Source of the DNA: a virus
Lineage: Duplodnaviria; Heunggongvirae; Uroviricota; Caudoviricetes
Virus record (IMG/VR): IMGVR_UViG_3300012662_000013
Coordinates: 43,405 to 107,404 of that record
DNA: 64,000 nt
Reading direction: 5' to 3' (one strand)
Shown piece by piece: positions 13,351-51,924 of the stretch. The number at the start of each line of letters is the position of its first letter. Position 1 is the stretch's first letter. The notes beneath the pieces are model-generated. The model saw only the letters and a program-made list of their open reading frames with translations. It ran no database searches and was not told the DNA's origin. The position numbers were made by a program, and so were the translations under genes.

Positions 13351-13354
13351 TAAA

Positions 13355-13390: not shown

Positions 13391-13411
13391 TGCTTATTTA
13401 TTATAATAAAA

Positions 13412-13450: not shown

Positions 13451-13512
13451 AAATTATTTGACAATAATTTTTATATAACTATGGAAAGAATAAATAAGAA
13501 AGGATTTTAGTT

Positions 13513-13944: not shown

Positions 13945-13957
13945 GGAGTAATGGAAT

Positions 13958-14194: not shown

Positions 14195-14221
14195 TATATT
14201 TTATTAAAGGAGGACATTTTT

Positions 14222-15312: not shown

Positions 15313-15332
15313 TAAGAAAAGAGGAAAAATAA

Positions 15333-15752: not shown

Positions 15753-15757
15753 TTACA

Positions 15758-23104: not shown

Positions 23105-26100
23105 CTTCAGCTTCTCCTTGGGAACGGTTATTTCTTAATACTAAATCACCATTAGATTGAATTCCATCAATGTGATAAAGTTGATGTCCGGCTGTTGATG
23201 CATACTTCTTAACAATAAAATCATCTCCAGAACGGATGCCTTGGGCTACAATCATATTACCGCGATTAAACCAAGATTTTTCAATAATTTTTTTAGTTCC
23301 ATCAGGTTGTTTTTGAGAAATTTGTTTGTCAAACAATGTAAAATATTCTTTTCTGAACTTTACATTTACTACTCCTGTTGGAGTAAGAATAGTTACAATA
23401 CTCTTATTCTTATTTTTAGCGATACAAGTGCCGCACAACTTAGAAAGATAATAAATATTTATTGTTTTTCCAGCCTTAATAAAGCTTCTTTCTACGACTG
23501 GGTCTTCTGGAAGTTTATAGAAATCAACAAATCCATATTTACCTTGATTAACTTTTGCTAATTCATGTTCGTGGTAATAGAAACATAATACTTCCATTTC
23601 CCACGCAGAATAATTTACTTTAGGACAATATTTATCCCAATCCATTTTAAATACAATTTCATTTAATTTATTTAAAATTTCTTCTTTATTATCAGCAATT
23701 TGTTTACGATAAACATCCATCCATCCTTGGTAAACCTTATCATTCCAATCCTTAATATTTAAAAAGAAATTAGAATTATTGCTTTGGATTAAGTCATCTT
23801 TATCAATCTTTTGTAAAAATCCAATAGCTCTTTCATCTAGTTTATAATTAACTTTATCATATTTACAAATTTGTTTTAAATAACGAGTAAATTCATAAAT
23901 ATGTAAAGCCTGTTGTCTTTCATCTGTATCTGCTGGAAGAAGATTTAATTTCATTAAAGTAGCTAAATTTTGAAGATTAAGATTTTTCTTTTTATCACAA
24001 GTTTCCCAAATATACCAAGCCATACAAAGTTTTCTATCCATCATATGGTCAAAAGCCCCACCCTTGATAAGAGAAATCATAGCTTGTTTATTAGGATTAA
24101 CTTTATTTAAGAAATCTCTAGGAGAGATATAAGGTCTGTTATCAATAATTGTGCGAACTACATCATCACCAACATTTAGCATACCTTTTAAGCCGAACAG
24201 AATTTGATTATTTTCAACATCAGGGATAAAACTAAATTCTGATTTATTAATATCAGCAAGACTTACTTTAATACCAGCCTTACGAATATCACCAATGGCC
24301 TTAGCAATTTTTCCATAGTCAGTAGAATTAGTTTTTCTTACCTTAGATTTTTTATCAGGTAAATCTTCAAAAGTAACTCCGTTAGCTAAATCATCAGCTT
24401 CTGGATCATAAATATCTACTATTTCTTCTTCACTATTATCTTCTAAAGAACCACTATTGACAATTAAACAAGCACAATTCCAGTAGATAGGATTGTAATG
24501 AATAACAAAATAAATCATTTGAATAGCTACAAATGAATAAGGGAGTGAGTGATTACGTATACTCTGACTATTTCTTACGGACTTTGTAGTGAAAGTGGTA
24601 AATTTTCTCGTCCGCACACCATTTCCAACAACGTGTCAATAGTTGTTGTACTCCAAGTCTAACCTTGGATAGTCGATACAATAGATTAAAAATAAAGTTA
24701 TTTTTTCCTTAAAGGATAATTTAAATTATCTTTTTTATGAGAGCGGCCAGTATTTATATTGGTTACTGTAGATCTTGATTTATTATATTTTTTAGCAATT
24801 TCATTTTGAGTTAAATTAGTATTTAATAAATCATTAATAATTTTATTAACCCAAATTTCATTAGCTTTTTTGTTACATCCTTTTATATATAAAGGATAAG
24901 TTTCATTTTTATCAAAAAAATATCTACCACTATTAATACCAGAAATAAAACCAATACTTTTAATATTAAAATCTTTTGCTATTGTTTTATAAATTTCTCC
25001 AGACTTTATTCTATCTTTAATTTGTTTTATTTCTTCTTTAGAGAAATGGCTTCTATTTATTTCTTTTTTTAAAGGATAATCAAATAAAGGATTTTTAAAA
25101 TTTAACCCGCTATTAATATTTATAAGATATGAATACTTTAAACGTGGAGAATATTTTTTTAAAATTTCATTAAAATCTTTATTGGCTATTAATAAATTCT
25201 GTATATTAATAATTTCATTTCCAGTAAATAGTTTTGAAGATTGTAATTTTTCTTTATAAGTTTTTTCCTTCGGAGAAAATCCTTGTCCTCCTTGAGAAAC
25301 ATTATATCCATTTAAAGAAATTAAACTTTGATATTGTTCTATATAATATTTTTCTTTATCATCTATATAATTTTGGTCTTTACTATCATCAATTTCTTCT
25401 AATATAATAAAATCAAAATTATTTAATCCATATTTTCTAATAGCATTATGGAATGGTATATTATAATCATTTGATTTAGGATTAAAAGAACAACTTTTAT
25501 GTCCATTTTTTCTTTTTTGGATATTATTTGTTTGACCAATATAAATCTTCCCATTTATTTTATTTTCGTATTTATATATATATTTCATTTTTGCACCTCC
25601 TTATAATCTATTTCTACTTTTAATCTATCACGAGATTTTACCCTCGTTAGCAATTAATTTTATAATACTACCAATATTATAATGTAAATTAATTACCCCT
25701 ATGACGAATAGGTTAAGTGTGTAAGCCCCAATCTCTCAAGGCTAAAAGCATATCCTAACTGCGGTGCTACTGCTGTTTCCCAAAAATATTCTGCATCACT
25801 TTTATTATTAAAACGACTAAATACCTGTTCCTTTAATTGAGGAATCTTAGCCATTTGTTTTTTAGCAACAACTTTACGTGCTGAGTTAGCTTCACCTAAT
25901 GTAAAATGAGCTATATCCATAAGGATTTCCATCATTTGTTCTTGTAAAGGGCAACAACCATAATATTTATCACAGTGTTTATGAAATTTATTAATAAGTT
26001 CTTGAGGCAAATGATGTTGTTTCATTTCTTGATCAAAGGCTTGGATACCTTGGTGTTGAATTCGATAAAATCTATCTTGTTGTGATTCTTTACCTTTTTC

Positions 26101-29139: not shown

Positions 29140-29206
29140 ATATATATTATTTCCTTATAACAACTAATTTTTTACTGGCTCTAGTAATACCAGTATATAA
29201 ATATTT

Positions 29207-30337
29207 CTAATGGTCTAATTTATTAAAAGGATGTACTTCTTCAATTAATAATACCTTATCCCATTCACTGCCTTGTGCCTTCCAAACTGTTATAGCATAA
29301 GCATAAGCAAAGTAATAAGGAGCTTCTAAAGCATCAGAATTTCTAGCAAAACTATTCATTCTAAATTCTTGTTTTTTATCAAAAGCTTGCTCTCCTATAA
29401 GTAAAGCATCATAATCAATTGGAATAGATTCAAATCTTCCATTTTCAATATCCATACCAGTAAACATATATTGCAATTCTTTATTATAAATAAAGCTTGG
29501 ATAATGATAAGGAACTATTTGATAATTAGTAATTGTCCCAATAGACCCATTAGTGAGTGGCCATAAACCATTAGTGGAGATAAAATTCCAATGATTGGTT
29601 AATCCTATGATTTTATCTCCTATTTCTGGTATAGGTCCTCGACCCTGTCTTTCTCGAACTTTATTATTTATTTCAATACGTTTCTTATTAGAGGCGCATA
29701 AAGTTTGGTCTGCCCATTCATACATTTCAGGAATAAGTTCATAAGGTCTTAGAATTTGAACTTGTTCTTTGGCTACTGGAAATTGCCCCAAGGGCTTACC
29801 TTCACGCACCCACATAGATAAACGAATAATTTCACTATCTTGTGCTTGCCGCATAATTTCATCTAGAAAGATATGTGGTTTATCTAATACATGGTTATCT
29901 TCATTTTGATCTACAGGAGGAAGCTGAAAAGGGTCACCACAGGCAATTACATATTTATGATGGGAAAGAAGTAAATCCCACATTGTTTTAGGCAGCATTG
30001 ATATTTCATCTACAATAATTACTTTATATGGGATAGGCCATCTTTTTTTTAAATAAAATGTGCCGTTAGGTCTCGGTTTAGCTTCATACAATAATTTATG
30101 TGCTGTAGTTGCATTAGGGCATCCTTTTGTTTGAAGAACGGTTGCTGCTTTACCAGTATAAGCCACATAAGCTACATCAGTTTCAGGATTCAAATTTAAT
30201 GATTGAACTATGAATTTTACTAATGTAGATTTGCCTGTGCCAGTTAAGCGTAGCCAGCAATACAAGTATAAGATTCGTGGCTCTTGTATCTGGCTACGGC
30301 AATTTTCAATCCAGCATTTTGTTTATCAGTTAGTGTC
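29207..30337 (-). CDS. dda: Dda/RecD-like SF1 DNA helicase; needs a -1 frame change at TAA (30246-30248) inside the Walker A region
   Basis: N-terminus MTLTDKQNAGLKIAVARYKSHESYTCIAGYA* (RBS aaggag, TTG 30337) matches T4 Dda MTFDDLTEGQKNAFNIV...GPAGTGKT. The body (ORF 29207..30265) carries TGTGKST, VIIVDEISM, ACGDPFQLPPV and AITVWKAQGSEWDKV. Confidence 0.55.
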
Positions 30338-30727
30338 AAGCGGATTTACTTCTCCTTTCTATATAAATTTATCATTTTCAAAAACCACTTTCATTGGTTT
30401 TTCTTGAGCTGTGGGAATGATATAAACATAATCTTCAGTAAATGGCATTTTAAATCTAGTATCACCATTTTCATCAAAAATTTCTAAATCGTATTTTTGA
30501 TTTGAACCTTCGGTTTCTGCATCTGTACTCGGTCGGAGCTAAGCCATTTTTTTATTACCCTTGCCGCCTCTAATTTCATAAATATCGCAAGAAGTAGTTT
30601 TATTAAGCTCAGTGAGTTTAGCACTTAATTCTTTAATTGCTCTAGTAGCTTCTTCAGCAGAAATACCAAAACTACCCCAAGAAGCTATTTCTTTTACTAA
30701 TTCATTAAATTCATCTTCATTAAACAA
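30333..30727 (-). CDS. Hypothetical protein (~131 aa), 2 TAG; overlaps the helicase start
   Basis: ORF 30539..30727 continues through TAG to TGA 30333-30335. Confidence 0.35.
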
Positions 30728-31445
30728 AGTATTTGTAAGCTATTGTGGCATATTGTTGTCTAACGTAATTTGATTGCGATAATCCTCTTTCATAACATTT
30801 CATAAAAGCTAAAGCAGCTTCTTGCTCGTTCTCCAATTCTAAAAATTTTTCAAAATTAAAATTATTTGAATAACAAAAACCAAACATATCAATTTGATAT
30901 TTAATATCATCACGAAGAAAATCCATTTGACCTTTTAAATCTGCTCCCCATACTCTATCAGTAAATACTTGATTCCATTGGCATAATCCATAAAATCCAT
31001 TGCCATAAATGGTAGTTTGCAAATCTAATGTCCCACCGCCAACCTCAGCCATCATATTACCTAAAATACCAGCACATACATAATCATTCCAGCCAAGATT
31101 TTTCATATATTCCCAAATAAGAGTAGCATCTTTATATTCAAGTCCATCTAATTCTTCATCAACTTTATCTAATTGATTTTGATAGAATTTAATAATTTCA
31201 TTATAAAAATGCCATTTACCTTTAAGATTCATAATTACATCACTATCATCAGTATAACCGATTAACCGAGCATTATTAGCATTATTATGAATTTCTTCTT
31301 TTTTTAAAGTATATTCATCAATTAAATTGATAAGTTCCCAATAATTATTAGTTTCTTTTAAGGGAGTATATTCAACAGTTATTGCATTAACATTAATAGT
31401 TAAAATTAAAAGGATACTAATAATTATAATAATTTTTGTTTTCAT
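30720..31445 (-). CDS. Secreted lysozyme-like protein (phage-tail-lysozyme family motif AGILGNMMAEVGGG...YGLCQWN) with signal peptide
   Basis: N-terminal signal peptide MKTKIIIIISILLILTINVNA. GILGN...E.GGG...YGLxQW pattern. Confidence 0.45.
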   Translation of the reverse strand: MKTKIIIIISILLILTINVNAITVEYTPLKETNNYWELINLIDEYTLKKEEIHNNANNARLIGYTDDSDVIMNLKGKWHFYNEIIKFYQNQLDKVDEELDGLEYKDATLIWEYMKNLGWNDYVCAGILGNMMAEVGGGTLDLQTTIYGNGFYGLCQWNQVFTDRVWGADLKGQMDFLRDDIKYQIDMFGFCYSNNFNFEKFLELENEQEAALAFMKCYERGLSQSNYVRQQYATIAYKYFV

Positions 31446-31462
31446 ATTTTTCTCTCTATCTA

Positions 31463-33205
31463 TTAAAAATAATATTTTACATTTTTAGTAACATGATAAT
31501 CAGTAATAAAAATTTCTGGATTAGTTTTTCCTAAAAATTCATTTATTTTACAAATACCAATAATATCAACAATTATACAGCCTGTTTCACTATGTAAATA
31601 ATTATATTCTTCTTGATTAACATTAAATTTAATTAAATCTAAATCATTTGGTAATTTAATTTTTAATGTTCCAGTAGTTTCTTTAGGATAATAAATTACA
31701 TTATTATTAGTAAGTTTTAAATTTTTAATAACTATATATGGTTCTTTAAAATTCTATCCCCACAAAGGTTCAAACTCTGGTATTTCTAATATAGTATTTA
31801 TATCAATATTATTACTATCAAAAATATAATCAGCTAAATAAACTGGCTAACCATCATAACCATATAATTTACTATTTGTATCTCTTATGAATTTTCTTAT
31901 ATTATTATCAGCAATTTTCGCACCAAATGCTCCTTGATGACCTTCTGCAAATTCAAAATATCCAGTAGAATTAAGATAAGCTTTAAAATCTTTTATAGGC
32001 TCAAAAAATTCATACCCACGACCAGATCCTTCCCAGTATTTAATTCCATTTTCAATTACTTCATTAAGTATAAGAGTCGGCTTCTAAAATCTATTAGCAA
32101 ATTCATTTGCTATTAATCCAGTTAAATTTTTATTTACTTCATATTTTTTATCCAACTAAACAACTAGAATTTTATCATTTAATAAACCTTGTTCTTCAAT
32201 TAACTTTTCTATTATTTCAACATTGGCATCACGGATTTTAGTCTATCGTGTTTTTACATTACCACTAACGCGACATGCCTGTTCTACAATAGTTTCAGCT
32301 TGTCCTCTGCATCCTCTTTTGGTTGATGGAATTAAATCATAGGCAAGAAAATCTAACATACTCTAAAATACTACTTGTCGTTCATCAGTTTCTCCAACAC
32401 GAGTAACTGCATTAATGAGTGGAGCAATATAGAAAGCGACACCCATAGGAGTTAAAGTTTCTTTTAATTTAAATTTATTTTTTTCCATCATACCTTTAAT
32501 ATAAGGATTTTGAGGATTCTTTAATCCTTGATTAATAAAATATCGAGTTTCATAAGGCCTACTATCCATCATATCGCCGATTAATCCAAGAGCTACTAAA
32601 TCTAAATATTTATTTGAATAATTAGTATTAAGAATTTCATCAATAGCATTACAAAATTTATAAACAATAGCGACGCCAGATAATGCTTTATTAGGATAGT
32701 TATCTAATTGATTATTAATTACACAAGCATAAGGAGAAATTTCATCTGCTTCATGATGATCTAAAATTAATATATCAATACCCTTATTATAAAGTGCTTT
32801 ATGTTCTTTATACTAATTACTTCCTGCATCAGGAATTATTACTAATTTAGTATCTTCTGGAATAGTATCTAAAATAATACCGTGAGTTTTCTAGATATGA
32901 ACTCTATAATATACATTATTAGATACATAATAAGGGAATAAATCATATAAATAATTAATCAGCAATGCTGAAGATGTATAACCATCGCAATCAGCATCTA
33001 CCTAAATAAAAATTTTATCATTTTGTTTAATATGTTTTAATAATAATTTAATTCCCTATTCTATATTATTTAATAATTTATTGGGATATACATCAGATTG
33101 TGTGGGATTAAGAAAATGCTAAATATTCTCAGTCTTAATCCCACGATTATTCATTATTGTTTCTAATGGAGTTTTTTGTGTATCATTAATTAATTTATAA
33201 TTCAT
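31463..33205 (-). CDS. RecJ-like DHH-family ssDNA exonuclease (~580 aa), ~9 in-frame TAG
   Basis: DHH motifs DADCDG, ILDHH and AEGHQGAFG. ORF 32363..32572 is one internal piece. RBS taaggag. Confidence 0.55.
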
Positions 33206-33216
33206 ATACTTACTCC

Positions 33217-35332
33217 TTATATAATAATTCTTTCTTTATATAATTTAAGAAATAAATCTGGCCCTTCATCAGTTGGACTATCCTTATAATTAGTAAGCAT
33301 ATTCTTATCAAAAATAAAAGATATGTTAAAATAATTTCCATACTTAGCCTTTATTTTTAATAAGTTATTTTTTAAATGATAAAATTCTTCATCACCTATT
33401 TTTTGGAATTGTCTATCAAAAGCAATAATAATATCTTTCGCACCGACTTGCTCTAATAATTTCATTTGCTGAGCCGATACGCTGCTGCCGCAACAAGCTA
33501 CCGTTATATCATTTTCAAAACCAAAATAACTTTGATATTGTAAGGTTGACTTTTCCATATAATCCATTATTTCTAATGGTACTGACTATATCTTCCAACT
33601 ACTAATTATAGTTGCCACTGTTTCGAGATATGTACCAATAATATCTCTACTCCCTTTAACAGGATAGTCGATACAGGTTATCTATTTTTCCACATCTATT
33701 TTGCTCCTACTGAATGATTATTTCTTAGAGGATAATTATATCCATCAAGCCTATAAGATTGAGTTTTTCCATTTATTATATCTGAAATAGTGGAAGAAGA
33801 ACAATTGAACATTTTTGCTAATTCTTTTAAATTTTTATCATTTTTTAAAATTTCTTCATGAATTTTTTTACATTCTTCAGGAGAAAATTTTAATCCTTTA
33901 GTGCCTTTAGCTTTATTAGAACGAATAGGATATTTAATTCCAGACTAAGGTCTTCGTGCTCCAATATTTATATTGTATATGTGAGTTAGTGAAAATCCAG
34001 TTTTTTCACTTATTTCTTTAAAAGAATATTTTTCATTCTTTAAATACTCAATAACTTCTAATATTTTTTTATCTTCATACATTGGTTTAACAGGATTTTT
34101 TCCACCAGTTGATTGATTATAACCATTAAAATATGTATCATAATATTTTATCCAATATTTTTCTCTATTGTCTAATTCTTCAAGTGGAACATTTTCTTCT
34201 AAAACTATTAATTGATACTCTTCTTCTCCATATTTTCTTATCCCTCGACTTAAAGGATAATCATACTCTGCTTTATTCATATTAAATGGGTCATATTGAA
34301 TATGCTATTTATGTCTATTTTTTAAGTTATTAGTTTGACCTACATAAACAATTTTACCATTACTTTTTTTCTTATAAGCATAAATTACATTCATAAAATC
34401 AACTCCTTTTCTCACTATTATATGAAAAATGAAGTTAGATGTTTAAATAGATTTTCCCACGGAACCACCTTGAATTTAAAAAAATTTTTAGGCTCCTCCG
34501 TTAGCTTGTTAAAAATAACAAACCCCATTGGTAAATGGTAAAGTGGACTAGGGCGAAACTTTCTTTTACCCTCAAATATTATTGCTTTTCCTATCCTATT
34601 TATATTTGCTTTACTATTATTTAAATTATATAAATTCATACCAAGAGGATGAGAATAAAGAATCTTATTAATTTTTAATGGTCTATATTTGCCATACAAT
34701 AGAGCTTCCTCTTTTCCTAACACTCTTCCTCTTAGTCCTATAAAATTTCCATCTATGTCAAAATGAGGAATTGTAATAGCATCGCCGCCAGGGTAATAAC
34801 CAATTATTGCTTGGTCTATCGCCTCTTGGCTTATTCCTTCTTTTAGCCACGGAGTTAATTTTACACAATAATTAAATCTACTTAAAATTTTACTATCATA
34901 AGTTTTTAATTCAACTTTAGAATTTAAATTTTCTTCTATGTTATTCTTATCATAATTAGCTAAAAATTTCCAATCTTCTAAGCCTAAATCTTCAGCATCG
35001 TCTTCCACTGAACCGGCAATACCAAAATAATTAGCTATCCAACGAACTGCATCATTTAGGTCATACTCTTTATTAGATTGGATATGAGCTACTTTAATTA
35101 CTAATTCAAATATATCAAATATATCATCACAGCCGGTGTAGCATTTAAATAATTGACTATTTGAATAGTAATAAAGTTTCTTACTTCCTGCTCCTGGTTC
35201 ATTATGACAGATAGTTTCAGAAAGGATACCGAATTCACTATATTCAGGATTACCGCCCCAAATATTTAGTAATTCAAAAATATTGTCTAAAGTTAAATTA
35301 TTTTTTATCTCAGCTTTATCATAGTTAATCAT
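33217..35332 (-). CDS. DnaG/T7-type DNA primase (CHC2 zinc finger plus TOPRIM) split by a group I intron
   Basis: Exon 1 is in ORF 34418..35332 (zinc finger CHNEPGAGSKKLYYYSNSQLFKCYTGC; ends ..KAIIFEGK). Exon 2 is ORF 33217..33567 (..ITVACCGSSVSAQQMKLLEQVGAKDIIIAFDRQF), aligning to the TOPRIM EG..D...G...FD.D.AG. Confidence 0.65.
33578..34562 (-). mobile_element. Group I intron in the primase TOPRIM region carrying a GIY-YIG homing endonuclease gene
   Basis: 5' core gctaacggaggagcc...ccgtgggaaaatc; 3' core aacctgtatcgactatcc directly after the endonuclease stop. Confidence 0.55.
33678..34394 (-). CDS. GIY-YIG homing endonuclease (~238 aa), 3 in-frame TAG
   Basis: MNVIYAYKKKSNGKIVYVGQTNNLKNRHK[TAG]H..YWIKYYDTYFNGYN, plus YPIRSNKAKG/NYPLRNNH DNA-binding repeats. 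RBS aaaggag. Confidence 0.65.
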
Positions 35333-35350
35333 TATTAACTTAATAAATTA

Positions 35351-35533
35351 TTAGAATGTAATTACATTAATACAAGTGCCTTTAATACCAAATTCTTCAT
35401 TAACTACTTTAATAAGGTATTCCTTTGGATGTTTCTTTGCAAATTCACCCTTAGCAGTCTTTAGATACATCGCTGCCATTTCCTTCGGCATCTTATATTC
35501 AATAGTTCCATTCATAATATCTTTGTTAAACAT
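35351..35533 (-). CDS. Small hypothetical protein
   Basis: 60-aa ORF between primase and dnaB. Confidence 0.3.
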   Translation of the reverse strand: MFNKDIMNGTIEYKMPKEMAAMYLKTAKGEFAKKHPKEYLIKVVNEEFGIKGTCINVITF

Positions 35534-35549
35534 AATTTAATCTCCTTAT

Positions 35550-38192
35550 TTAAAAAGCGCTATCTTCAGCAATTCTAATTTTTACATTTTCCATATCTAC
35601 TAATTCATAACTCCAATCAGTGCAAAAGATTGGAATAATACGACAGCAACCTAAATCAGCCTTACACCATAGATAAATTCCTTTATATTTACCTCGACGA
35701 TTTTTATATACTGATAATTTTATTGTTGGACGTTCAAAAGTATTTGTTTCAAGTATTTTCTCTAACGATTGATAATCATTATCACGAGCTTGAAGAAGTA
35801 GCATACCTACGTCAATTTTATCTGCAATGGCTTTTGAACCACGCAGAACATTTTGGTCTGGCGTTTCACTATATTGATAATCAGCATTTAACTAAGTAGC
35901 AGACATAATAAAAATACCATATTGATTACAAATATCTTTTAATCTAGTAGAAAGCATAAAAAGGATATTATCTTCTCTTAATTTTACGCCGCCGCTTCGT
36001 TTACTAATTTCTTCAAGAATTTTCATACTTGTATGAATATAATCGTGAAATATGTATTTAACCCCGTGGTCTCGAATATTTTTCTTAATAACATTTTCTA
36101 CATCCCGTAAAGAAAAATCTGGCATTTCTACAACAAATAAATCTGCTTTACAAAGATATTGTGCTGCTTCCCTTACTCGCGACAATTCATCCCCAACATA
36201 TTTACCATTCAAAATATGGTCTTCATTTACGTTAGATAGGAAAGCCAACATCATAGTTTGGATTTCATCTTTAGTCTGTTCAGTAGAAATAAATAAAACA
36301 GGTTCTCCGCCCCCACCGGACTTAATCCATCCAATTCCTTCTTGGTAATATTTTTCACAAGAAAGATAACAAGCATCAGCAATCATACTACGAGACTTCA
36401 GTTTTGTTATCCTATGGGCTTTTTATCCCATAGTTCTTATGGTTTCCCATAAGCTCAGCATATCTTTTCATCTTCACCTTTAAGTGTTAAGAGTAGGGGC
36501 CTCGTGGATGGATTATATCTTTTCACCATCTATGCGTTGTGGCTGGTTATAGTTCCTATAACCTTCACCTCTGATTACCTTGCTTAATAAATTAAGTTTA
36601 GGCTTCCAGATTTTTTCCCCTATAATTATCCTTAAAATTTCTTTTAAGGACGGCAATTTTTTAAAACAATATATTTTTCATATTTTCTATCTAAATATAT
36701 AGAAGCATTTAAATATAACTAATCTAAATAATCAAATACATAATTTCCACTCCACTCAATAGCATAAGCATTAGAAGGATGCTAAATTTTACATTGGCGC
36801 CATTGAGTTCTTTGTAGTAATTCTTCAATAAATTCTTTAGTGCTTAATAATGATAGTCTTGGCTTATTATAAATCCCTTTATGATTTTTTCCAATCATAA
36901 TACTACCATCACCATCAATATACCCTCTTATAAAATCAAATAAAAATTTATCTGAGACTTGTTCTTTAGTAGGAAATATTAATGTCAATGATTTTTTAGG
37001 AGTACAACCTAAGTTAATTAAACTTTGTCTTAGATGTTTATTACTTACCTAAATTCTACATCTAATATCATCCTAAAAAATATGTTTGTCTTTAGAAAAT
37101 CCTAAGTTATCTCGAAATTTTTCTAAATGCTTAATATCAGAAGATTTTAAACTTAATTCTACAGTATTATTATTACTGCTAATAGCTCCATCAGCATATA
37201 AAAATCCTAGCCAATAAGCTTTATCTGGATTATCGATTACGTCAAAATAATTTTCATTGAATTTAGTTATATTTTGTTTATTAATAATTTCAATACCTTC
37301 GGCTTTAAAATTATTACTTAATGTTCCTCTATCCAAATGTAATTCTTTACTAATCTAAGCAAGACTTTTACCTTCTTCAAGATACATTCTTTTTGCTTCT
37401 TTATATTTTTCTTTATATATATTAGATTGTCCCATATCATTTAAGGACCTCCTTTTTAATATATATAAATTTTTAATTATATGAATTCAACAGAATTGTC
37501 CGTAAATTACCTACACCAGTTGCCGCAGACCGCAAATAAAATTTATTCAATCTTGCTCCACGAGTAACTGTATTAATCAATGGACCAAATAAAGGAGCAC
37601 CAACTTCAGGATGTTCCAAAAGGTCATCAATTAATTCATCAATATTATTGCCAGCTTGGTATGCATCATTTTCCATTTCTGCTACATATTGATATTTAAT
37701 TTCTTCAATTTTATCATCAATACGTTGAGCAATTTTTTCTAATGAAGCATTATCTAACCATTCTTCTTGGAGTTGACGTTTTTTAGTATCTAAAATATTA
37801 TCAGGGTCATAAATATCGCTTACATCAAAACCATACCTATCATACGCTCGAAGTAATGACATCTTTTTTAGACGTCCATAATAATAATCAAAAGTAGTAT
37901 TATCACTATGAAGGCTAGCTTCTTTAATCCATTTGTCACCTTTTTGTGCAACATAGATAGCTTGATATTTTGGTCGAGTGCTTAAAAAATCTCCAATTGC
38001 ATCTAATGTAATGCTTTCGGCGCCAAGTTCATGTAGTTTATATATTGAACCATATACTATTTTATGAAAATCATTATCAAAATCATCTTCAGTAATAACA
38101 TATTTATCAGTATAATCCAATAGCTTAGGATTATTATATACGCAACCGATTGTCTAGATAATGGCTGTTGTATCAATATATTTTGATGCCAT
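35550..38192 (-). CDS. dnaB: Replicative DnaB-family helicase split by a group I intron after the Walker A glycine run
   Basis: N-terminal domain plus ..FYLRSAATGVG (ORF 37473..38120, real start ATG 38192 with RBS gataaggagg). Exon 2 is ORF 35892..36386 (..VLFISTEQTKDEIQ..), then TAG, then ORF 35550..35804 (SAT[Q]LNA..). Confidence 0.7.
36497..36540 (-). repeat. 43-nt near-identical block (caacgcatagatggtgaaaagatataatccatccacgaggc) shared between the dnaB intron and the late-gene intron at 14418-14460 (inverted)
   Basis: Direct comparison of the two strands; adjacent gatgaaaagatatgctga and ataggataaca blocks are also shared. Confidence 0.65.
36644..37440 (-). CDS. LAGLIDADG homing endonuclease (two motifs: AYWLGFLYADGAIS, RGYIDGDGSI), 5 in-frame TAG; N-terminal mini-ORF in the -1 frame
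   Basis: ORFs 37073..37336 and 36782..36988 are same-frame pieces. The body frame has ATG 37387 (weak RBS). An upstream ORF (ATG 37440, strong RBS aaaggagg) ends at TAA 37318-37320 in the +1 register. Confidence 0.5.
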
Positions 38193-38727
38193 TAGTCCTC
38201 CTTATCATCCAAGAAAGAAAACAGATGTTTTTTATAAGGCTTAGGTTTAGGGCGTGGTATCACAATTTCTGTTTCTTTTGGAACATAATTTTCAACTGTT
38301 TTATTTGTATTTTTTTGTTGAGCTAACCAAATAGCATAGTAATAGTTAAATGCTTGCTTATAGACCCAGGGTACTATACCAATACCATCATTTGATTTCT
38401 CTACTGGATTTTGTTTTACTTCATAAAAATAAACTAAAGATTTTAAAATTCCACTATAAGTAAAATTATATTCTTTAATATAATTTTTAATTTGTTTTTG
38501 AATACGAGGGTCTACATAATCAGTATGAAATAATTGATTAATATACTAATCTAATTTCATTTTATCTAAATCCTCTTTACTCATAACTTCTTCTTTGCGT
38601 TCAGCACACTCTGGATGGGCATAACGCTTGGAACTTACTTGAACAAAAGGCTACTTATCTCTATCAAAAGTTTTTCCACAATATAAACATTTTACGTTAT
38701 GTGCTATTGGTTCTCACCACCAAACAT
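38192..38727 (-). CDS. C4 zinc-finger protein upstream of dnaB (possible helicase loader); body lacks ATG and needs a -1 shift from an 11-codon leader ORF at TAA
   Basis: ATG 38727 then MFGGENQ[TAG]HIT*. -1 frame body ..VKCLYCGKTF..HPECAERKEE.. (176 codons, 3 TAG) ends TAA 38192-38194, overlapping the dnaB ATG. Confidence 0.35.
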
Positions 38728-42271: not shown

Positions 42272-44523
42272 TTATTTAATACTATAACCAAATTCTTTTG
42301 CTTGATAGAACTCTTGCCAATAATCTTCTCGGCTATCCAATAGGGATTTATCACAATCTTCAAGAATTTCAAAAGTAAATTGTTCCGGCCCTAATTCATA
42401 CATTGCCGGATAAAGTTTATTGCGGGTTGGAGCTTCTGCTCCTACTCCACGCTTTATATGTTGTTTCCAGCGGTCAGCGATATTGCAAATTATTTTATAA
42501 TTCTGACTATCTTTTACTGTTAAAATTTTAACAGGAAACCATTTCGGCATTTAAAGGACTTCATTTCTTAAAATCCTACTACGTATCAATAGTAGCCCTA
42601 CTTCCCCGCCCAAAAGGCCTAGGGAATAGTCGATACAGGTTCTTTGATTAGCGTGCTGGATAATCATAATCTTTTATAGAATATGACTTTCCTTTATTAA
42701 TTTTACTAACTGTATTTCGATGTATATTATATTTAATACCAATATCAGACATTGATTTAGAACTATTTCTTAAATCTGATAAAATATTTTTTACTTCTTC
42801 AATAGTAAAATTTTGATTATTTCTAATATTTTTATTTCTAATAGGATAACTATAATTGCCATTTTCTTTGAATAAAGTCCCTTGATTAATTGCTCTAATT
42901 ACTTTTAAAGGAACTTTATACTTTTGAATTAAATCTGTTTCAATCTATAAATCCCAACGATATAATAAATCTTCTTTCAAATTTAATAATTCCTACTCAT
43001 TAAGAAAATAATCTAAAACATTATCTTTTTTCGCAAAATCATGATTATTTTGCCTTAATGGGTATGAAAGATTGGAATTAAAATACGTATTTCCTTGAGA
43101 TATATTAAAAATAGTGTCTTGACTAACTTGATATAAATTAGCAATATCTTTATAAGATAATTTAGTATTATTTACTAATAAATCTATAATTTCATTTAAT
43201 TGCTATTCATCAAATTTAGAATTACAATTCTCTACTCCTCGTTTACCAGAAACATTCCCATTTTTTAATACATTATATCCTATAGATTTATCTGTAGCAT
43301 TATAAAAATCAATCCATTTAGTTTCTATGGCATCAAGCTATAAAATATCAAAAACCTATTCCAATACTTCAATTGTAGCTTGATGTTTTTTTAAAGCCTA
43401 ATCACAAATTTGAATATTTTTATTATTATGCTCATTGGCTCTAGACCAAATACTTAAAGCCTAACCGATATAGATTTTACCATTATCATAATTTATTTTA
43501 TAAATACCACAGACTTTTAAATTATTATTAATATTAGTAATCATTGTTGTTTCCACCGTCCTTCTATATATTATTAATTTTTATGGAGGGTGGATTAATC
43601 AAAGTTTCCCACGGGATTGATTAAACTTAATTTTCCCCGTTAGCTTGCCATTTTCTAAATTTTGGTAAATGGCAAACCCCATTGATTAATGGAAAAGTTT
43701 TTCATCGGCCAATGTTGACCGCTTGACCTATATAACATTTTTGACTTTCTATATTAGTAATCTTATAAATACCTGTGCGGATTTTCTGACCAACTACTCG
43801 GCCGATTAAATCACTATAAGGTTTTTCATAATATACTTTCCAAATTACTTTATTAATTGGTTCAGCACTTCTTAAATAAGGAACAATTGAACGAATTTTT
43901 TTAATTTCTTCAATATCAATTTCACTTAAATTAAGTTTATAAAACTATTCTTTTTGTTTTACTTCTTCGGCACGTTTATTAGCTTCAACAATAGCATCTT
44001 GTTTTGCCTTTGCATCAGCCAATTCTTGAGATACCTTATTTAATTCTTCTTGCTTTTGGATAATTAAATTAGCATATTCTTTTGTGCTTTCTTCAATAGC
44101 TTTTAAATATTCTTGTTGATAATTATCTTCTGCCTATTGGTATTTCTAAGCCATCTATTCAGCAGACTAAGCAAGTTTTTCAGATGCTAATTCGTTTGCT
44201 TTTTGGCAATACATTTCAGCGTTTAAACTTGCTTGCTAATAATTTTCATCAAGAGTTTTCTTTTTATCTTTTAAAAAATCTATTTCTTTAATTAATAAAT
44301 TATAATCATTATTTAGATTAAAGATTTTTTCATTTAACTCATTTTGTTTTTGAAGAAGCCTTTGACTTTCTTCAATTATTTTTGCGTTTTCTTCTCTAGT
44401 TTGATTATCTAACTCAATTGTGGCTTTTAATTTATTACGCAGACCTAAATATAAAAGACCAGCACCGAGAAGAAAACATATTACGCAATAAATTACAGTC
44501 ATATTTAAAAAGAAAAAGGGCAA
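42272..44523 (-). CDS. Membrane-anchored coiled-coil protein whose C-terminal GIY-YIG nuclease domain is split by a group I intron
   Basis: Exon 1: ATG 44523 (ORF 44236..44523), transmembrane segment plus coiled coil read through 7 TAG to ..KIRTGIYKITNIESQKCYIGQAVNIGR then TGA 43702. Exon 2 lies within ORF 42272..42550: ..WKQHIKRGVGAEAPTRNKLYPAMYELGPEQFTFEILED..REDYWQEFYQAKEFGYS, the second half of a GIY-YIG domain. Confidence 0.5.
42480..43705 (-). mobile_element. Group I intron, homologous to the topoisomerase intron, inside a GIY-YIG nuclease gene and itself encoding a GIY-YIG homing endonuclease
   Basis: Shares tgaaaaacttttc, gctaacggggaa...cccgtgggaaac, aacctgtatcgactat...ctactattgatacgtag and gtaaaagatagtcag blocks with the intron at 49376-50428. 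Confidence 0.55.
42648..43544 (-). CDS. GIY-YIG homing endonuclease (~298 aa), 8 in-frame TAG
   Basis: MITNINNNLKVCGIYKINYDNGKIYIG[TAG]ALSIWSRANEH.., then repeated YPLRQNNH / YSYPIRNKN / YDYPAR motifs. Confidence 0.6.
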
Positions 44524-49031: not shown

Positions 49032-51924
49032 TAATGCCTTGTCCCATTAAGTCTTCAAATAACTTATCAGTAGCTTCTACGTCTTCTACAGTGATTTGTT
49101 TGATAATACGGTTTTCAGGATCAGTTAAAGTTTCTTCTGTTTCATCAACATCCATTTCGCCAAGGCCCTTCATACGATTGACAATATATTTTTTACCTAC
49201 ATTTTCTTTGCGGAAAACTTCAAGAGCTTCATCATTTTTAAGATATTTATATTTTTTACCAATCGTAATTTTATAAAGCGGTGGCACACCAGCGTATACA
49301 TATCCATCTTTAATCAATTCAGGGCAAAAATTCCAAATGAAAGTATAAAACAGATTTTTAATATGTGCGCCGTCGCGTGTTATTCTTATGTTTCCATAAG
49401 CACTGACTATCTTTTACTTTCTAAATATTAGAAAGGAAACCATTTCGACATTTAACTCACTTCGTTTCCTAAAATGAGACTACGTATCAATAGTAGCTCT
49501 ACTCCCCTGCCCATAAGGCTTAGGGGATAGTCGATACAGGTTCAAATATTAATCCATCGCTTTTCTTTCTTTTTATATAAAGGTAAAGAGGAATAAGAAC
49601 GGCCCCATAATATTGCCTAAAAACCTTGAAAACTAATTCTATCTTTATAATCTTTATATATTTCTTTAGCATTTTCATTTACATATCTTTTTCTAATTTG
49701 AATTATCTCTTTATCAGAAAATTTAGCGTTAGAGCCATTTTCATTTTTACTGTTATTATAAATATAATATTTTTTATTTTCTATAGTAAAAACTTCAGGC
49801 ATTACATTAGACCAACATTTTCCAGACCAAACATTCTAAAAATGATTGAAAGAAATTTTATCTTTAAATAATTCATAAATATCTTTCTAACGATAGTGTT
49901 TAGCATAAGCTTGTCTAATAATTTTTACGTCATTTTCTGTTAATTTAGCTCTACCATTATTTTCTCCAATTGAGGATTGATTTCCTCCTGGATTACAATT
50001 ATAACCTTTATTAAAAGTATTATAATATTTAATCCAATATTCTTCTTTATCATTTAATTGACTAATAGAGCATAATTCAATTATTTCATAAGTAAATGAA
50101 TTTTTTCCATATTTTTGAATAGCGATATCAACAGGAATTCTGCTTTTCTCTCCAACAGTCTAATGTTCTTTAAATCTACGTTCTATATCATTAGACTAAC
50201 CGATATAAGATTTTCCTGTTTTTTTATTAGTTATTTTATAAATACCAATCATTTTACCATCCTCCTATGAAGATGGATTAATATTTGTTTCCCACGGGAT
50301 TCTCCTGCGTTTCCGTTTAGAGTTCCCCGTTAGCCATCTTCTATTATTATATGAGAACCATCAATGTATAATTAATAGAAGTTGACCCGCCTGATTAGAC
50401 GAAAAGTTTTTCATACGCCGTTTTGCTGACGTCTGCATCGCTCATTATGATAATTTTGCCATATCGTAAATCTTCTGGATGATATGTAATTTTCATATTC
50501 TTAGGGTCAATGGTTAAACCGAATGCTTGAATCATAGTCATAATTTCTGCATTCTTTTGGATTTTATCAAGACTTGCTTTTTGAGTATTAAGAATTTTGC
50601 CACGGACAGGTAAAACTGCTTGGAACTCATTATTACGAGCATCTTTTAAATTACCGCTTGCACTATCGCCCTCAGTGATATAAATTTCACATTGACTACG
50701 TTTTTTGCTATAGCAGTCAGCTAATTTACTATCAAACTTTAAAGCTTTCTGCTTCTTTTCATTTTGATTACGAACAGTTTCTCTAGCTTTTCTAGCTGCC
50801 TCTCTAGCACGACGTGCATTAAGAGCTTTATCTGCAATAATCTTAATTGATTTTTCATTAAGCTCAAGCCATTGTCTAATACTTTCAGTAATCCAAGGAG
50901 TAAACGGAGACATATCCAATTTCACGATTCGGCTCTTGGTCTGAGCATCATAACTTACTCCAGGAGTAGTGAGATTGAATACAAGATACAAACCTTCTTG
51001 GCAATCATCACCTGAAAGGTTTTCTTCTTTATCTTTTAACCATTTCTTTTCACGGAAAAATTTATTTAATTCACGAGTAAGAATAGTTTTAATTAAAGTA
51101 ATGTGCGGACCGCTATCAGTAAGTCCAGTATTTACATAGGGAACAATAATAGATGAATAACTGTCAGTATAAGTTAATTCAAAATCTAATTTATTCTTTC
51201 CTTCATCTTTTTTAAGAATTAGCCTATTATCAATGATTTCAGTGTTTTTAACTGCATCATTTACTAAATCAGTTAACCCATTAGCTGAATAATATTCTTC
51301 GCCATTAAGGAGAATTTTTAGACCGGGGCATAAGCATACAAGAACTTTAAATAACTGTTTAATAGTATTTAAATTAACTTCTGTATGAGTGAAAAACTCT
51401 TCACTAGGTTGCCATTGGACCAAAGTTCCTGAGGGATTATCTTTGTTATTCCAATCTCCGCATTCGCGTTTAACAAACTCACCTTCTTTGAACCAAATAT
51501 GTTCATATTTACCATCTCGATGTGTAATTACTTCAAGCCGGTGAGAAAGATACGTGGCTAATTTGCTACCAATACCATTAAGACCAAGGGCAGTTCCTTC
51601 ATATACGCCATCATCATCATATTTACCTGACGTATTTAATACTCCAAAAGATGCCTCAAGGATAGTCTTACCATCTTCTCGCATTGCATTTGGAATAAAT
51701 CCTTGTCCATTATCCTCAACGATAATTACATTATCTTTATTAATATCAACTTTGATAGTATCGCCGTGGCCTGCGGCATACTCATCGACCGCATTTGATA
51801 CAATCTCAATAAGTAATTGAGTTGAATATTCAGTAGAACCACAATAGACACCTGGTCTAAGGCGAGTAAATTGTAAAGGGCTTAGCGACTGTATACTATC
51901 TTCTGTATATACTTTATTAGCCAT
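48973..51924 (-). CDS. Type II topoisomerase ATPase/TOPRIM subunit (GyrB-like; T4 gp39-like) split by a group I intron
   Basis: Exon 1 is ORF 50395..51924, ending ..YGKIIIMSDADV at 50429. Exon 2 starts at 49375 (DGAHIKNLFYTFIW..PPLYK..KGLGEM..). The splice restores GyrB ..[24 protein letters not shown].. Confidence 0.75.
49481..49545 (-). repeat. Group I intron 3'-core repeat (..ctactattgatacgtag..aacctgtatcgactatcc..), copy in the topoisomerase intron
   Basis: ~85% identical to 42581-42645; a shorter match at 33640-33677 and partial matches at 24640-24680 and 58060-58080. Confidence 0.6.
49542..50252 (-). CDS. GIY-YIG homing endonuclease (~236 aa), 5 in-frame TAG
   Basis: MIGIYKITNKKTGKSYIG[TAG]SNDIERRFKEH..EEYWIKYYNTFNKGYN. 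ORF 49617..49802 is the C-terminal piece. RBS ggaggatgg. Confidence 0.65.

What the first reader, a model, noticed from the sequence alone, without database searches (positions are those of the whole stretch)
29207..38727. Three genes need a -1 frame change exactly at an in-frame TAA (helicase, zinc-finger protein, dnaB-intron endonuclease)
- Dda-like helicase: the N-terminus (TTG 30337, good RBS, MTLTDKQNAGLKIAV.. matching T4 Dda) runs into TAA at 30246-30248 (..IAGYA*). The rest of the helicase, starting inside the Walker A motif (LTGTGKST), is in the -1 frame beginning with the last base of the codon before TAA (gct|taa read as tta). An 18-bp imperfect hairpin (30263-30300) lies just upstream.
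- Zinc-finger gene before dnaB: an 11-codon leader from ATG 38727 ends acg|taa (38692-38694), and the 176-codon body without an ATG continues in -1 (gta..).
- dnaB-intron LAGLIDADG endonuclease: a 40-codon leader with the only strong RBS (ATG 37440) ends cat|taa (37318-37320), and the LAGLIDADG body is in -1 (tta..).

The same geometry three times looks more like programmed -1 recoding at UAA, or a systematic feature of this coding system, than like random indels. Sequencing error or pseudogenes are not excluded.
Basis: inference. Interest (0 to 1): 0.6.

Follow-up and report, generated by a model that had tools for sequence, protein, structure and literature searches.

The report
Ribosome hop in phage helicase gene
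Of the three claimed frame changes, one is a real and widely conserved signal that most likely makes ribosomes skip 5-8 bases after a stop codon inside a phage helicase gene, and the other two come from this phage reading TAG as glutamine and starting one gene at ATA.

Summary
The window is a 29% G+C phage that reads TAG as glutamine.

- **Endonuclease site (site 3):** no frame change. It is one ORF from ATG 37435 with in-frame TAGs. A paralogue in the window aligns in a single frame across the claimed junction.
- **Zinc-finger site (site 2):** no frame change. ATA 38707-38705 aligns with Met1 of more than 20 homologues (MAHxVKC) and has a ribosome-binding site 5 nt upstream.
- **Helicase site (site 1):** real, but not a -1 shift.
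  - Unbroken homologues read GYAGTGKST. Here 5 nt (TAA CT) sit between GCT (Ala31) and GGC.
  - At least 90 related alleles from independent assemblies carry the same layout: Ala codon, then a stop (or rare CGG), then 2-5 more bases, then GGN.
  - The gap falls in all three frames, even among close relatives.
  - The triplet before GGN is always GCN or one mismatch from it.
  - A strong hairpin built from synonymous codon choices ends exactly at the take-off codon. It occurs only in interrupted alleles (z -3.5 against -0.25, p = 6e-12).
  - Both halves of the gene are under purifying selection.

Best reading: programmed short translational bypassing (a "stop-hop") driven by a 5' hairpin. I found no prior report. 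There is no protein evidence.

The parts
30247..30339 (-). Helicase segment 1: TTG start and 31 codons ending in Ala31, with GCT 30249-30247 as the take-off codon.
   Evidence: One search lists the ORF. Searches show residues 1-31 align with the N-termini of 60 homologues. In the window clade, pN/pS of this segment is 0.17. A CAA-to-TAG (Gln to Gln) change at codon 7 in relatives shows it is translated in this frame.
30250..30297 (-). 5' stem-loop that ends at the base before the take-off codon. Its parts are GUAGCCAG 30297-30290, AUACAAG 30289-30283, a 16-nt loop 30282-30267, CUUGUAU 30266-30260, a UG bulge 30259-30258 and CUGGCUAC 30257-30250.
   Evidence: -21.3 kcal/mol, z -3.25; present in 37 hop lineages (mean z -3.5) and absent from 38 uninterrupted alleles (z -0.25), p = 6e-12; the outer 8 bp are paired in 23-36 of 37 lineages (29 or more for seven of the eight pairs), and one pair covaries.
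30244..30246 (-). UAA stop codon that sits in the A site at take-off.
   Evidence: Relatives carry TAA or TGA, TAG in 4 loci or rare CGG in 2 loci. No helicase allele was found with any other codon here.
30242..30244 (-). Proposed landing triplet ACU. It is the last A of the stop plus the 2-nt gap CU (30243-30242). Together with the stop this makes a 5-nt non-coding gap, UAACU.
   Evidence: In all 45 junction types the triplet 5' of the resume codon is GCN (20), ACN (12), GUN (11) or UCN (2).
29147..30241 (-). Helicase segment 2. The resume codon GGC 30241-30239 begins GTGKSTLV... and is followed by 364 codons. TAG 29209-29207 is read as Gln. The gene stops at TAA 29149-29147.
   Evidence: The repaired protein matches Pfam AAA_30 at 8e-23 over residues 17-184, which spans the junction, and also UvrD_C_2. 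pN/pS is 0.19. It is the only copy in the window.
38192..38707 (-). Zinc-finger protein gene (Pfam PF26927 is recorded on its homologues). It starts at ATA 38707-38705 and has two in-frame TAG codons.
   Evidence: The ATA aligns with Met1 of more than 20 homologues (MAHxVKC, MHKVKC).
38713..38721 (-). Shine-Dalgarno-like GGTGGTGAG, 5 nt upstream of the ATA start.
38692..38727 (-). Its TAG overlaps the ATA start within the sequence AATAG.
   Evidence: In relatives the ACG-to-ATG change is non-synonymous in this frame but synonymous (AAC to AAT) in the body frame.
36644..37435 (-). LAGLIDADG homing endonuclease gene inside the dnaB intervening sequence. It is one ORF of 263 codons from ATG 37435 with five in-frame TAG codons, and it has no frame change.
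   Evidence: Pfam LAGLIDADG_3 matches. A paralogue at 57772-57542 aligns in one frame across both the TAG and the claimed shift site.

Best explanation
The Dda/RecD-like helicase gene carries a programmed short translational bypass, a 'stop-hop'.

Proposed steps:
1. The ribosome translates 31 codons and arrives with peptidyl-tRNA(Ala) on GCU in the P site and UAA in the A site.
2. Release at the stop is slow.
3. A 15-bp hairpin, whose 3' arm is the 17 nt directly upstream of the take-off codon, can only re-form if that arm is drawn out of the ribosome. That draws the mRNA forward.
4. The tRNA(Ala) lets go of GCU and re-pairs 5 nt downstream on ACU. In relatives it re-pairs 5-8 nt downstream on GCN, GUN, ACN or UCN.
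5. Decoding resumes at GGC.

The product is the canonical P-loop ...IAGYA-GTGKST... with nothing inserted.

What is shown:
- the interruption and the exact restoration of the conserved motif;
- its recurrence;
- a stop or rare codon at the A-site position in every interrupted helicase allele found;
- the near-cognate triplet before the resume codon;
- the hairpin restricted to interrupted alleles;
- purifying selection on both halves of the gene.

What is inferred: that the skip is made by the ribosome, the role of the hairpin, tRNA re-pairing as the landing rule, and any efficiency.

The other two sites need no recoding beyond TAG = Gln (endonuclease) and an AUA start codon (zinc-finger gene).
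For: Restoration of the motif:
- Distant homologues read GG. TAY GCN GGN NNN GGN AAR, which is GYAG(T/S)GKS, without interruption. The window and its relatives have extra bases exactly between GCN and GGN.

Recurrence:
- An unbiased tblastn of 60 loci found the break at residue 31 in 9 loci. Pattern matching added an in-frame case, giving 10 interrupted alleles in 6 lineages.
- The alleles fall into 38 clusters at 85% amino-acid identity.
- Eight further alleles sit on contigs of GTDB species-representative genomes, mostly MAGs.

Frame relation:
- The gap after the stop is 2, 3, 4 or 5 nt, so all three frames occur. Its length varies within tight clades.
- No gap outside 2-5 nt was found although 0-12 nt was allowed.

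Landing triplet:
- It is GCN in 20, ACN in 12, GUN in 11 and UCN in 2 of 45 junction types, and never anything else.
- Within clades it changes 'amino acid' (ACU, GUU, GCU) while the flanking P-loop residues stay invariant. That fits a triplet that is not translated.

A-site codon:
- It is TAA or TGA in the 80 capped hits and TAG in 4 loci whose helicase bodies contain no in-frame TAG.
- A control scan with a non-T first base found only 2 helicase alleles, both with rare CGG.

Hairpin:
-.
- The codon bias GGC-TAY-GCY holds in 6 of 6 unbiased hop lineages. In plain alleles GGC occurs in 16 of 45 and GCY in 14 of 45.

Selection:
- Leader pN/pS is 0.17 and body pN/pS is 0.19, at pS up to 0.6.

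Precedent:
- Stop-hops were made in synthetic constructs.

Sites 2 and 3.
Against: - There is no protein, ribosome-profiling or RNA evidence. Everything rests on comparative sequence analysis of uncultivated phages.
- In the window itself the landing triplet ACU matches GCU at only 2 of 3 positions.
- Take-off is mostly GCY while landing is often GCA or GCG, so one tRNA would have to read both.
- RNAalifold did not return the hairpin on its own. Its inner part uses different registers in different lineages, and most outer pairs are nearly invariant, so true covariation is limited to one or two pairs.
- The pattern scans forced GGCTAY and a stop. The universality of those features therefore rests on only 6 unbiased lineages plus the negative control scan.
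- A product with one extra small residue, if the landing triplet is decoded, cannot be excluded in silico.
- Known short hops in E. coli are inefficient.
Confidence: 0.7

Rival explanations
1. Skip with decoding of the 'landing' triplet. The ribosome steps over only the stop codon plus 0-2 bases, or over just the first two bases of the stop when the gap is 2 nt. This amounts to a +2 or +1 shift or a stop skip. It then decodes the next triplet (ACU here), giving GYA-T-GTGKST with one extra small residue (A, V, T or S).
For: The triplets found (GCN, GUN, ACN, UCN) all encode small residues. The outcome differs from the hop by only one residue. It shares all the other evidence: stop codon, hairpin and conservation.
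Against: It would lengthen a P-loop whose length is invariant in all uninterrupted homologues. The 'residue' changes among T, V and A within clades at 85% identity or more, while neighbouring P-loop residues never change. No P-site re-pairing partner exists for such shifts; the triplet would be UUA or UAA.
Confidence: 0.14
2. One reading: a programmed -1 ribosomal frameshift at the UAA, giving GYA-LT-GTGKST, as part of a system-wide N-TAA then -1 rule.
For: In the window the body is in the -1 frame, and 'A L T G T G K S' still fits [AG]x4GK[ST].
Against: There is no slippery X XXY YYZ heptamer, and tRNA(Ala) cannot re-pair on CGC. Relatives need +1, +2 or 0 shifts at the same site. There is no significant structure around or downstream of the stop. 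The other two 'examples' are not frame changes.
Confidence: 0.02
3. Removal of the gap at the RNA level. For example, RNA polymerase is pushed forward by the nascent hairpin and re-aligns the 3' GCY on a downstream GCN, or the mRNA is edited. The mRNA would then be continuous.
For: A hairpin ending 3 nt before the skipped segment, together with matched GCN triplets, would also suit a realignment of the transcript 3' end.
Against: A transcription mechanism gives no reason for the first skipped triplet to be a stop codon or rare CGG in every helicase allele found. Nor does it explain why the 4 TAG-stop alleles are ones whose helicase bodies have no in-frame TAG, which suggests TAG is still a stop there. 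No precedent for a 5-8 nt polymerase hop is known to me.
Confidence: 0.05
4. Inactive gene or artefact: a frameshift mutation (pseudogene) or an assembly or sequencing error.
For: It is a single-site break in one window. Some related loci do have plain indels, for example L044 in the Walker B run GTTGTTGTG.
Against: The same layout appears in at least 90 alleles from JGI, ENA and GTDB assemblies made with different assemblers. Both halves are under purifying selection at pS 0.2-0.6. A hairpin specific to interrupted alleles is maintained by synonymous choices. This is the only helicase copy of its kind in the window.
Confidence: 0.02
5. Split gene: a 31-residue peptide and a separately initiated helicase body that work together or alone.
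For: A TTG lies 6 codons upstream of the junction in the body frame of the window. L034 has an ATG there.
Against: No start codon is conserved at that place in other lineages such as L037 and L039, and there is no ribosome-binding site. The split would fall inside the P-loop strand-loop unit. It does not explain the landing-triplet rule or the hairpin.
Confidence: 0.03

Closest known systems
Phage T4 gene 60 translational bypassing (50-nt coding gap)
   Same: Both are in a phage replication gene. A sense take-off codon is followed at once by a stop (or a hungry codon in homologues). Peptidyl-tRNA is presumed to be retained and to re-pair at a matching codion 5' of the resume codon. mRNA pairing 5' of the site is implicated as a forward driver. 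The skip restores a conserved protein (PMC5009743; 10.1101/2022.08.31.505936; 10.1101/2024.12.09.627546).
   Different: The gap is 5-8 nt, not 50. Take-off is Ala GCY, not Gly GGA. There is no take-off stem-loop containing the stop. The dominant conserved element here is a 5' hairpin abutting the take-off codon, whereas the 5' stem-loop of gene 60 is reported as not conserved. There is no sequence homology and no mobA-like endonuclease next to the gene in the window. Landing is often only 2-of-3 matched.
Synthetic 'stop-hops' in E. coli (Weiss, Dunn, Atkins, Gesteland 1987, as summarised in PMC5009743)
   Same: Matched or similar codons flank a stop codon and the ribosome hops 5-9 nt. The in-frame alleles found here (GCU UAA GCU GGN) have exactly that design.
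   Different: Those were engineered and inefficient. The 2016 review states that no natural in-frame stop-hop was known. Here the design is natural, conserved in dozens of lineages, and paired with a dedicated hairpin.
Mitochondrial 'byps' of Magnusiomyces capitatus
   Same: Many short non-coding inserts in coding regions are corrected by translation. Take-off and landing are often matched at only two of three positions.
   Different: Byps are 27-55 nt per my recollection of Lang et al. 2014. They are scattered over many genes and rely on an unassigned codon and relaxed mitochondrial decoding. Here there is one site in one gene family, in bacterial ribosomes, with a specific stimulatory structure.
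prfB (RF2) +1 frameshift at a 'shifty stop'
   Same: A slow stop codon in the A site opens a window for P-site tRNA movement, and an upstream mRNA element stimulates it.
   Different: prfB uses CUU UGA C with re-pairing on an overlapping codon and an upstream Shine-Dalgarno-rRNA interaction, always in +1. Here the frame relation varies and the re-pairing codon does not overlap the take-off codon.

Membership tests
Programmed translational bypassing (hopping) | The take-off sense codon is followed at once by a slow-to-decode A-site codon (a stop or a rare codon). | tested here: met
   GCU UAA in the window. TAA or TGA in the 80 capped hits, TAG in 4 loci and CGG in 2 loci. No other codon was found in helicase alleles.
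Programmed translational bypassing (hopping) | A landing codon that matches the take-off codon lies directly 5' of the resume codon. | tested here: inconclusive
   GCN in 20 of 45 junction types. The other 25 are one-mismatch neighbours. The window itself has ACU against GCU, a 2-of-3 match.
Programmed translational bypassing (hopping) | Skipping the gap restores a conserved protein regardless of the frame relation. | tested here: met
   GYA|GTGKST is restored for gaps in all three frames. The Pfam AAA_30 match spans the junction.
Programmed translational bypassing (hopping) | A stimulatory cis element is conserved with the site. | tested here: met
   The 5' hairpin is present only in interrupted alleles: z -3.5 against -0.25, p = 6e-12.
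Programmed translational bypassing (hopping) | The trans-gap protein product has been shown. | not testable with these tools
   This needs mass spectrometry or a reporter assay.
T4 gene 60 / MobA bypass cassette | Homologous ~50-nt gap in a topoisomerase subunit gene, with an adjacent mobA endonuclease. | tested here: not met
   The gene is different (helicase), the gap is 5-8 nt, and no endonuclease ORF flanks the gene in the window.
-1 programmed ribosomal frameshift | Slippery X XXY YYZ heptamer with a downstream stimulatory structure and a fixed -1 relation. | tested here: not met
   The sequence is UAC GCU UAA. There is no significant structure around or after the stop. Relatives are in the 0, +1 and +2 relations.
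SF1B Dda/RecD-like helicase | AAA_30 / UvrD_C_2 domain pair with an intact Walker A motif. | tested here: met
The nearest cultured homologues, at 40% identity, are annotated as Dda-like or RecD-like helicase.
Phage with TAG reassigned to Gln (code 15) | In-frame TAG at conserved Gln positions, and restored ORF continuity when TAG is read as sense. | tested here: met
   ORF coverage rises from 0.67 to 1.08. Structural genes carry 16-21 TAG codons each. DnaB reads SAT(TAG)LNA. CAA is exchanged for TAG at helicase codon 7 in relatives.
Phage with TAG reassigned to Gln (code 15) | A suppressor tRNA(CUA) is encoded by the phage. | tested here: not met
   ARAGORN finds no tRNA in these 64 kb. The rest of the genome was not available.
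Non-AUG (AUA) initiation | The codon aligns with Met1 of homologues, has a ribosome-binding site at the proper distance, and no canonical start is available. | tested here: met
   Initiation itself has not been shown.

The most novel reading that the evidence does not exclude
A compact, possibly portable recoding module makes bacterial ribosomes hop 5-8 nt forward in any frame. It consists of a roughly 15-bp hairpin ending at the base before a weakly read Ala codon, followed by a slow A-site codon. It would be the first natural family of short stop-hops, including in-frame ones. It has spread or been regained repeatedly among gut and rumen phage helicases. It may be kept because it sets helicase dosage according to release-factor or tRNA status, or because the insert spoils the P-loop target of the homing endonucleases and inteins that invade the same site in sister alleles.
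Probability: 0.5. Interest if true: 0.9.

Novelty: new variant of a known kind. Interest (0 to 1): 0.8.

Why it matters
- **For the recoding field.** Natural translational bypassing has rested on very few systems: T4 gene 60 and its homologues, and yeast mitochondrial byps. Short stop-hops were known only from engineered constructs. The 2016 review says natural short-distance and in-frame cases were long expected but unknown.
  - This family offers dozens of natural variants: four gap lengths, all three stop codons or a rare codon, and eleven landing triplets. They come with one clear, testable stimulator.
  - That makes the question of what drives forward mRNA movement during bypassing directly testable with a cassette of about 110 nt.
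- **For annotation.** These helicases are predicted to be called as two fragments, as the ORF listing does here. The ATA-start zinc-finger protein is called as a truncated 130-residue protein on hundreds of contigs.
- **For reading recoded phages.** Two of the three 'frameshifts' vanish once TAG = Gln is recognised.

Tried and rejected
- Nucleotide search of the helicase region against cultured phage genomes found no match. A protein search found only uninterrupted homologues at 41% identity or less. No annotated precedent is therefore available.
- A hairpin enclosing the stop, as in the gene 60 take-off stem-loop, is not supported: z -0.49 against -0.13 in uninterrupted alleles, p = 0.14.
- RNAalifold on 37 lineages did not recover the 5' hairpin. 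The named structure had to be counted directly.
- The window-specific 4-bp extension (UGCC with GGCA) loops out exactly the take-off codon plus the gap. By inspection of the aligned junctions, it is not conserved, because most relatives resume at GGA.
- A link between the hop and TAG recoding could not be established. Coding-density gain in the short loci does not discriminate. Four TAG-stop alleles appear to use the standard code.
- Two mechanical scans of the window for further stop-plus-frame-change junctions were too noisy to interpret. The one other start-less ORF I checked (14551-15312) follows a sequence resembling the 3' end of the dnaB intervening sequence, so it is probably a second exon.
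- Rfam found nothing in the window at gathering thresholds and nothing credible in the dnaB intervening sequence. Its intron class is unconfirmed.
- Monophyly of hop alleles is rejected on a rough neighbour-joining tree without bootstrap support.
- Exclusivity between hop and intein could not be tested: 4 intein alleles against 10 hop alleles in the unbiased set, and the pattern scans exclude inteins by design.

Full report
**What the window is**

The 64-kb window has 29% G+C. Reading TAG as sense raises coverage by ORFs of at least 100 codons from 0.67 to 1.08 of the length. The + strand structural genes at 1-16 kb each carry 16-21 in-frame TAG codons, while replication genes carry few. DnaB reads SAT(TAG)LNA, where I recall DnaB homologues having Gln (not checked here). 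Relatives exchange CAA for TAG at helicase codon 7. This is a TAG-to-Gln recoded phage. No tRNA gene lies in the window.

**Site 3: LAGLIDADG endonuclease**
- One ribosome-binding site (AGGAGG) serves two ATGs that are 5 nt apart.
- The second ATG (37435) opens a single 263-codon ORF ending at 36644, with five in-frame TAGs.
- Its N-terminus, MGQSNIYKEKYKEAKRMYLEEGKSLA(Q)ISKELHLDRGTLSNNF..., aligns in one frame with a paralogous endonuclease at 57772-57542. The alignment runs across both the TAG and the claimed junction.
- The body matches Pfam LAGLIDADG_3.
- There is no frame change.

**Site 2: zinc-finger gene**
- The body frame has no ATG, GTG or TTG. It reads ATA GCA CAT AAC GTA AAA TGT, which is (I)AHNVKC.
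- A 52%-identical homologue reads ATG GCA CAC AAG GTC AAG TGT.
- More than 20 full-length homologues begin MAHxVKC, MHKVKC or MGHPVKC. The ATA at 38707-38705 therefore aligns with their Met1.
- GGTGGTGAG lies 5 nt upstream.
- The only substitution in the 'leader' among six close relatives is non-synonymous in the leader frame and synonymous in the body frame.
- The 11-codon 'leader' is a short upstream ORF whose TAG overlaps the ATA within AATAG. Whether that couples expression to TAG suppression is speculation.
- Gene callers truncate this protein to 130 residues on hundreds of contigs.

**Site 1: the break in the helicase is real**
- TTG 30339 opens 31 codons that end ...CIAGYA, followed by TAA (30246-30244). 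GTGKSTLV... follows 2 nt later in another frame and runs 364 codons to 29147.
- Removing the 5 nt TAACT gives IAGYAGTGKST. That is exactly the uninterrupted sequence of distant homologues.
- The repaired protein matches AAA_30 across the junction.
- It is the only such helicase in the window.

**The break recurs in many relatives**
- tblastn of the repaired protein against 60 related viral loci placed a frame change exactly after residue 31 in five close relatives and in L034, L037, L039 and L040. L047 also breaks there, but by a single extra C with no stop codon (see 'Seen in passing').
- The junctions are:
  - GCT TGA CT|GGA
  - GCT TAA G GCA|GGT
  - GCT TAA A GCA|GGA
  - GCC TAA AT GCT|GGA
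  - GCC TGA AA TCC|GGC
- A pattern scan of the viral collection returned the maximum of 80 loci, and every one is this helicase. Together with the earlier loci that makes 90 junctions in 38 clusters at 85% amino-acid identity.
- Eight more alleles lie on contigs of GTDB species-representative genomes, mostly MAGs labelled Bacillota- or Mollicutes-like, produced by different assemblers. Sequencing or assembly error is therefore excluded.

**Frame relation of the two halves**
- The stretch after the stop is 2, 3, 4 or 5 nt and never anything else, although 0-12 nt was allowed.
- The halves therefore stand in all three frame relations, including in-frame, as in GCT TAA GCT GGN.
- The length differs within tight clades. 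In the window's own clade the gap is CT, GTT or GCT.
- A fixed -1 or +1 slip cannot serve all of these. A landing-defined hop can.

**The triplet before the resume codon**
- It is GCN in 20, ACN in 12, GUN in 11 and UCN in 2 of 45 junction types. It always lies within one mismatch of the Ala take-off codon.
- Within clades it changes 'amino acid' while the flanking P-loop residues never change. That argues it is not translated.

**The A-site codon**
- It is TAA or TGA in the 80 capped hits.
- TAG occurs in only 4 loci, and their helicase bodies contain no in-frame TAG.
- A control scan that required a non-T first base returned 52 hits. Only two are this helicase, and both have the rare Arg codon CGG (GCC CGG TG|GGT) together with the hairpin.
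- A stop or hungry codon at this position is what bypassing needs. An RNA-level mechanism would not need it.

**The hairpin**
- In interrupted alleles, the 60 nt upstream plus GGC TAY fold with mean MFE -19.6 kcal/mol and mean z -3.5 (n = 37).
- The same region of uninterrupted alleles gives -9.4 kcal/mol and z -0.25 (n = 38). Mann-Whitney p = 6e-12.
- The stem pairs (G/A)UAGCCAGAUA..., which encodes V/I-A-R-Y, with ...UAUCUGGCUA(C/U), which encodes I-[A/S]-G-Y. Its last base pair sits directly 5' of the take-off codon.
- In an alignment of 37 lineages, seven of the outer eight pairs form in 29-36 lineages and the eighth (columns 13-48) forms in 25.
- The closing pair is G-C in 22, A-U in 6 and G-U in 4. 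The first base of the Val/Ile codon covaries with the synonymous third base of the Tyr codon.
- 77% of cells pair, against 22-48% when the partner is slid.
- The stem explains a codon bias. All six unbiased hop lineages use GGC-TAY-GCY. In uninterrupted alleles GGC occurs in 16 of 45 and GCY in 14 of 45.
- In the window the hairpin is 30297-30250. With a window-specific extension it folds at -21.3 kcal/mol, z -3.25.
- No comparable signal surrounds or follows the stop.

**Selection and spread**
- In the window clade, pN/pS is 0.17 for the 31-codon leader and 0.19 for the body.
- Synonymous divergence in the leader is half that of the body (0.22 against 0.45). That fits an extra RNA constraint on the leader.
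- Interrupted and plain alleles are interspersed on a neighbour-joining tree of the body protein.
- At equal body divergence, the N-terminal 93 nt are more alike among interrupted alleles (68%) than among plain ones (61%) or between the two classes (59.5%).
- The element has therefore been gained or lost repeatedly, or moved by recombination.

**Proposed mechanism (inferred)**
- With GCY in the P site and a stop in the A site, the 3' arm of the hairpin (positions -1 to about -17) lies inside the ribosome. The 5' arm has already emerged.
- Zipping up the terminal 8 bp requires the mRNA to be drawn forward by up to 8 nt. That matches the observed hop range of 5-8 nt.
- Peptidyl-tRNA(Ala) then re-pairs on the first acceptable triplet, and GGN enters the A site.
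- This parallels ideas on 5' mRNA pairing as a forward driver in T4 gene 60. There, however, the 5' stem-loop is reported as not conserved.
- Why the insert is kept is unknown.
  - One idea is dosage control of the helicase.
  - A second is sensing of release-factor or tRNA status.
  - A third is protection of the P-loop DNA from homing endonucleases. Sister alleles carry an intein 12 nt downstream (L041, L043, L053, L057), and this phage's own dnaB is interrupted in its P-loop.
  - None of these was tested.

**Literature**
Full-text searches found no report of bypassing or frameshifting in a phage helicase P-loop. The 2016 review states that stop-hops were shown with synthetic constructs and that no natural in-frame occurrence was known.

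**Verdict**
- Two sites are ordinary once the genetic code and an AUA start are recognised.
- The helicase site is a strong candidate for a new natural class of short programmed bypass.
- Confidence in some form of translational recoding at this site is about 0.85-0.9.
- Confidence in the hop with tRNA re-pairing as described is about 0.7.

Noticed in passing
window 1-16300 (+ strand) versus 16800-64000 (- strand): TAG-to-Gln recoding is very uneven. The large structural genes carry 16-21 in-frame TAG codons each, while most replication genes carry 0-5. No tRNA gene is found in the 64 kb.
   Followed up: partly
window 38692-38727 (-): The upstream ORF before the ATA-start zinc-finger gene stops at a TAG that overlaps the ATA within AATAG. 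If TAG is suppressed, the ORF runs on to TAA 12 nt later. This could tie expression of the gene to the state of TAG decoding. That is speculation.
   Followed up: no
window 36400-37510 (-): The dnaB intervening sequence splits the Walker A coding region, with exon 1 ending ...AATGVG and exon 2 beginning KSRSMIADA. It carries the LAGLIDADG gene. Rfam gives no group I or group II intron match, so its class is unconfirmed.
   Followed up: partly
window 14440-14560 (+) and 36380-36520 (-): The two stretches resemble each other (..atccatccacgaggcc..gaaaagatatgctga..ataggataaca..). The start-less ORF 14551-15312 is therefore probably a second exon that follows a related intervening sequence in a late gene.
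   Followed up: partly
window 33678-34442, 24698-25600, 42648-43580, 49542-50360, 55563-56282, 56984-57976 (-): Several apparent homing-endonuclease ORFs (mostly GIY-YIG-like by eye, plus a LAGLIDADG paralogue aligned) lie inside or beside replication genes: primase, the Pol III alpha-like gene and a topoisomerase/gyrase-like gene. The genome is unusually rich in mobile insertions.
   Followed up: no
L041 1983-3000, L043 307-1400, L053 1899-3000, L057 2175-3000: Sister helicase alleles carry an intein inserted after GxGK, with boundaries AQP...THN|T. That is 12 nt downstream of the hop site. L043 also has an insertion of about 1.25 kb at GDP|xQLPP.
   Followed up: partly
L047 3090-3100 and 3405-3415: One 45%-identical helicase has single extra C bases at two conserved spots, both in the context NCU CGG N (GCT C GGA and CCT C GGT). 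Neither has a stop codon, and its Gly-Tyr codons are GGA TAT rather than the stem-forming GGC TAY. The second spot is where L043 has its large insertion. These may be +1 shifts at a hungry CGG, or errors. This is a single contig.
   Followed up: partly
L044 800-830: A frame break lies in the Walker B run GTTGTTGTGTTGATGAA of another helicase allele. It looks like an ordinary indel.
   Followed up: no
window 30238-30301 (-): In the window only, four further pairs (UGCC with GGCA) extend the hairpin. The take-off codon plus the gap (GCUUAACU, 8 nt) is then looped out as a bulge, and the Tyr codon abuts the resume codon. This is not conserved in relatives that resume at GGA.
   Followed up: partly
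proteins P0002-P0066: Close relatives of the zinc-finger protein are recorded as 130-residue proteins starting at an internal Met, on hundreds of contigs including NCBI records. This is an annotation artefact of the ATA start.
   Followed up: partly
L017, L164, L179 and others: Several helicase alleles appear to begin with ATA or ATT (the N-terminus reads I..LT.KQ). Non-canonical starts may be common in this phage group.
   Followed up: no
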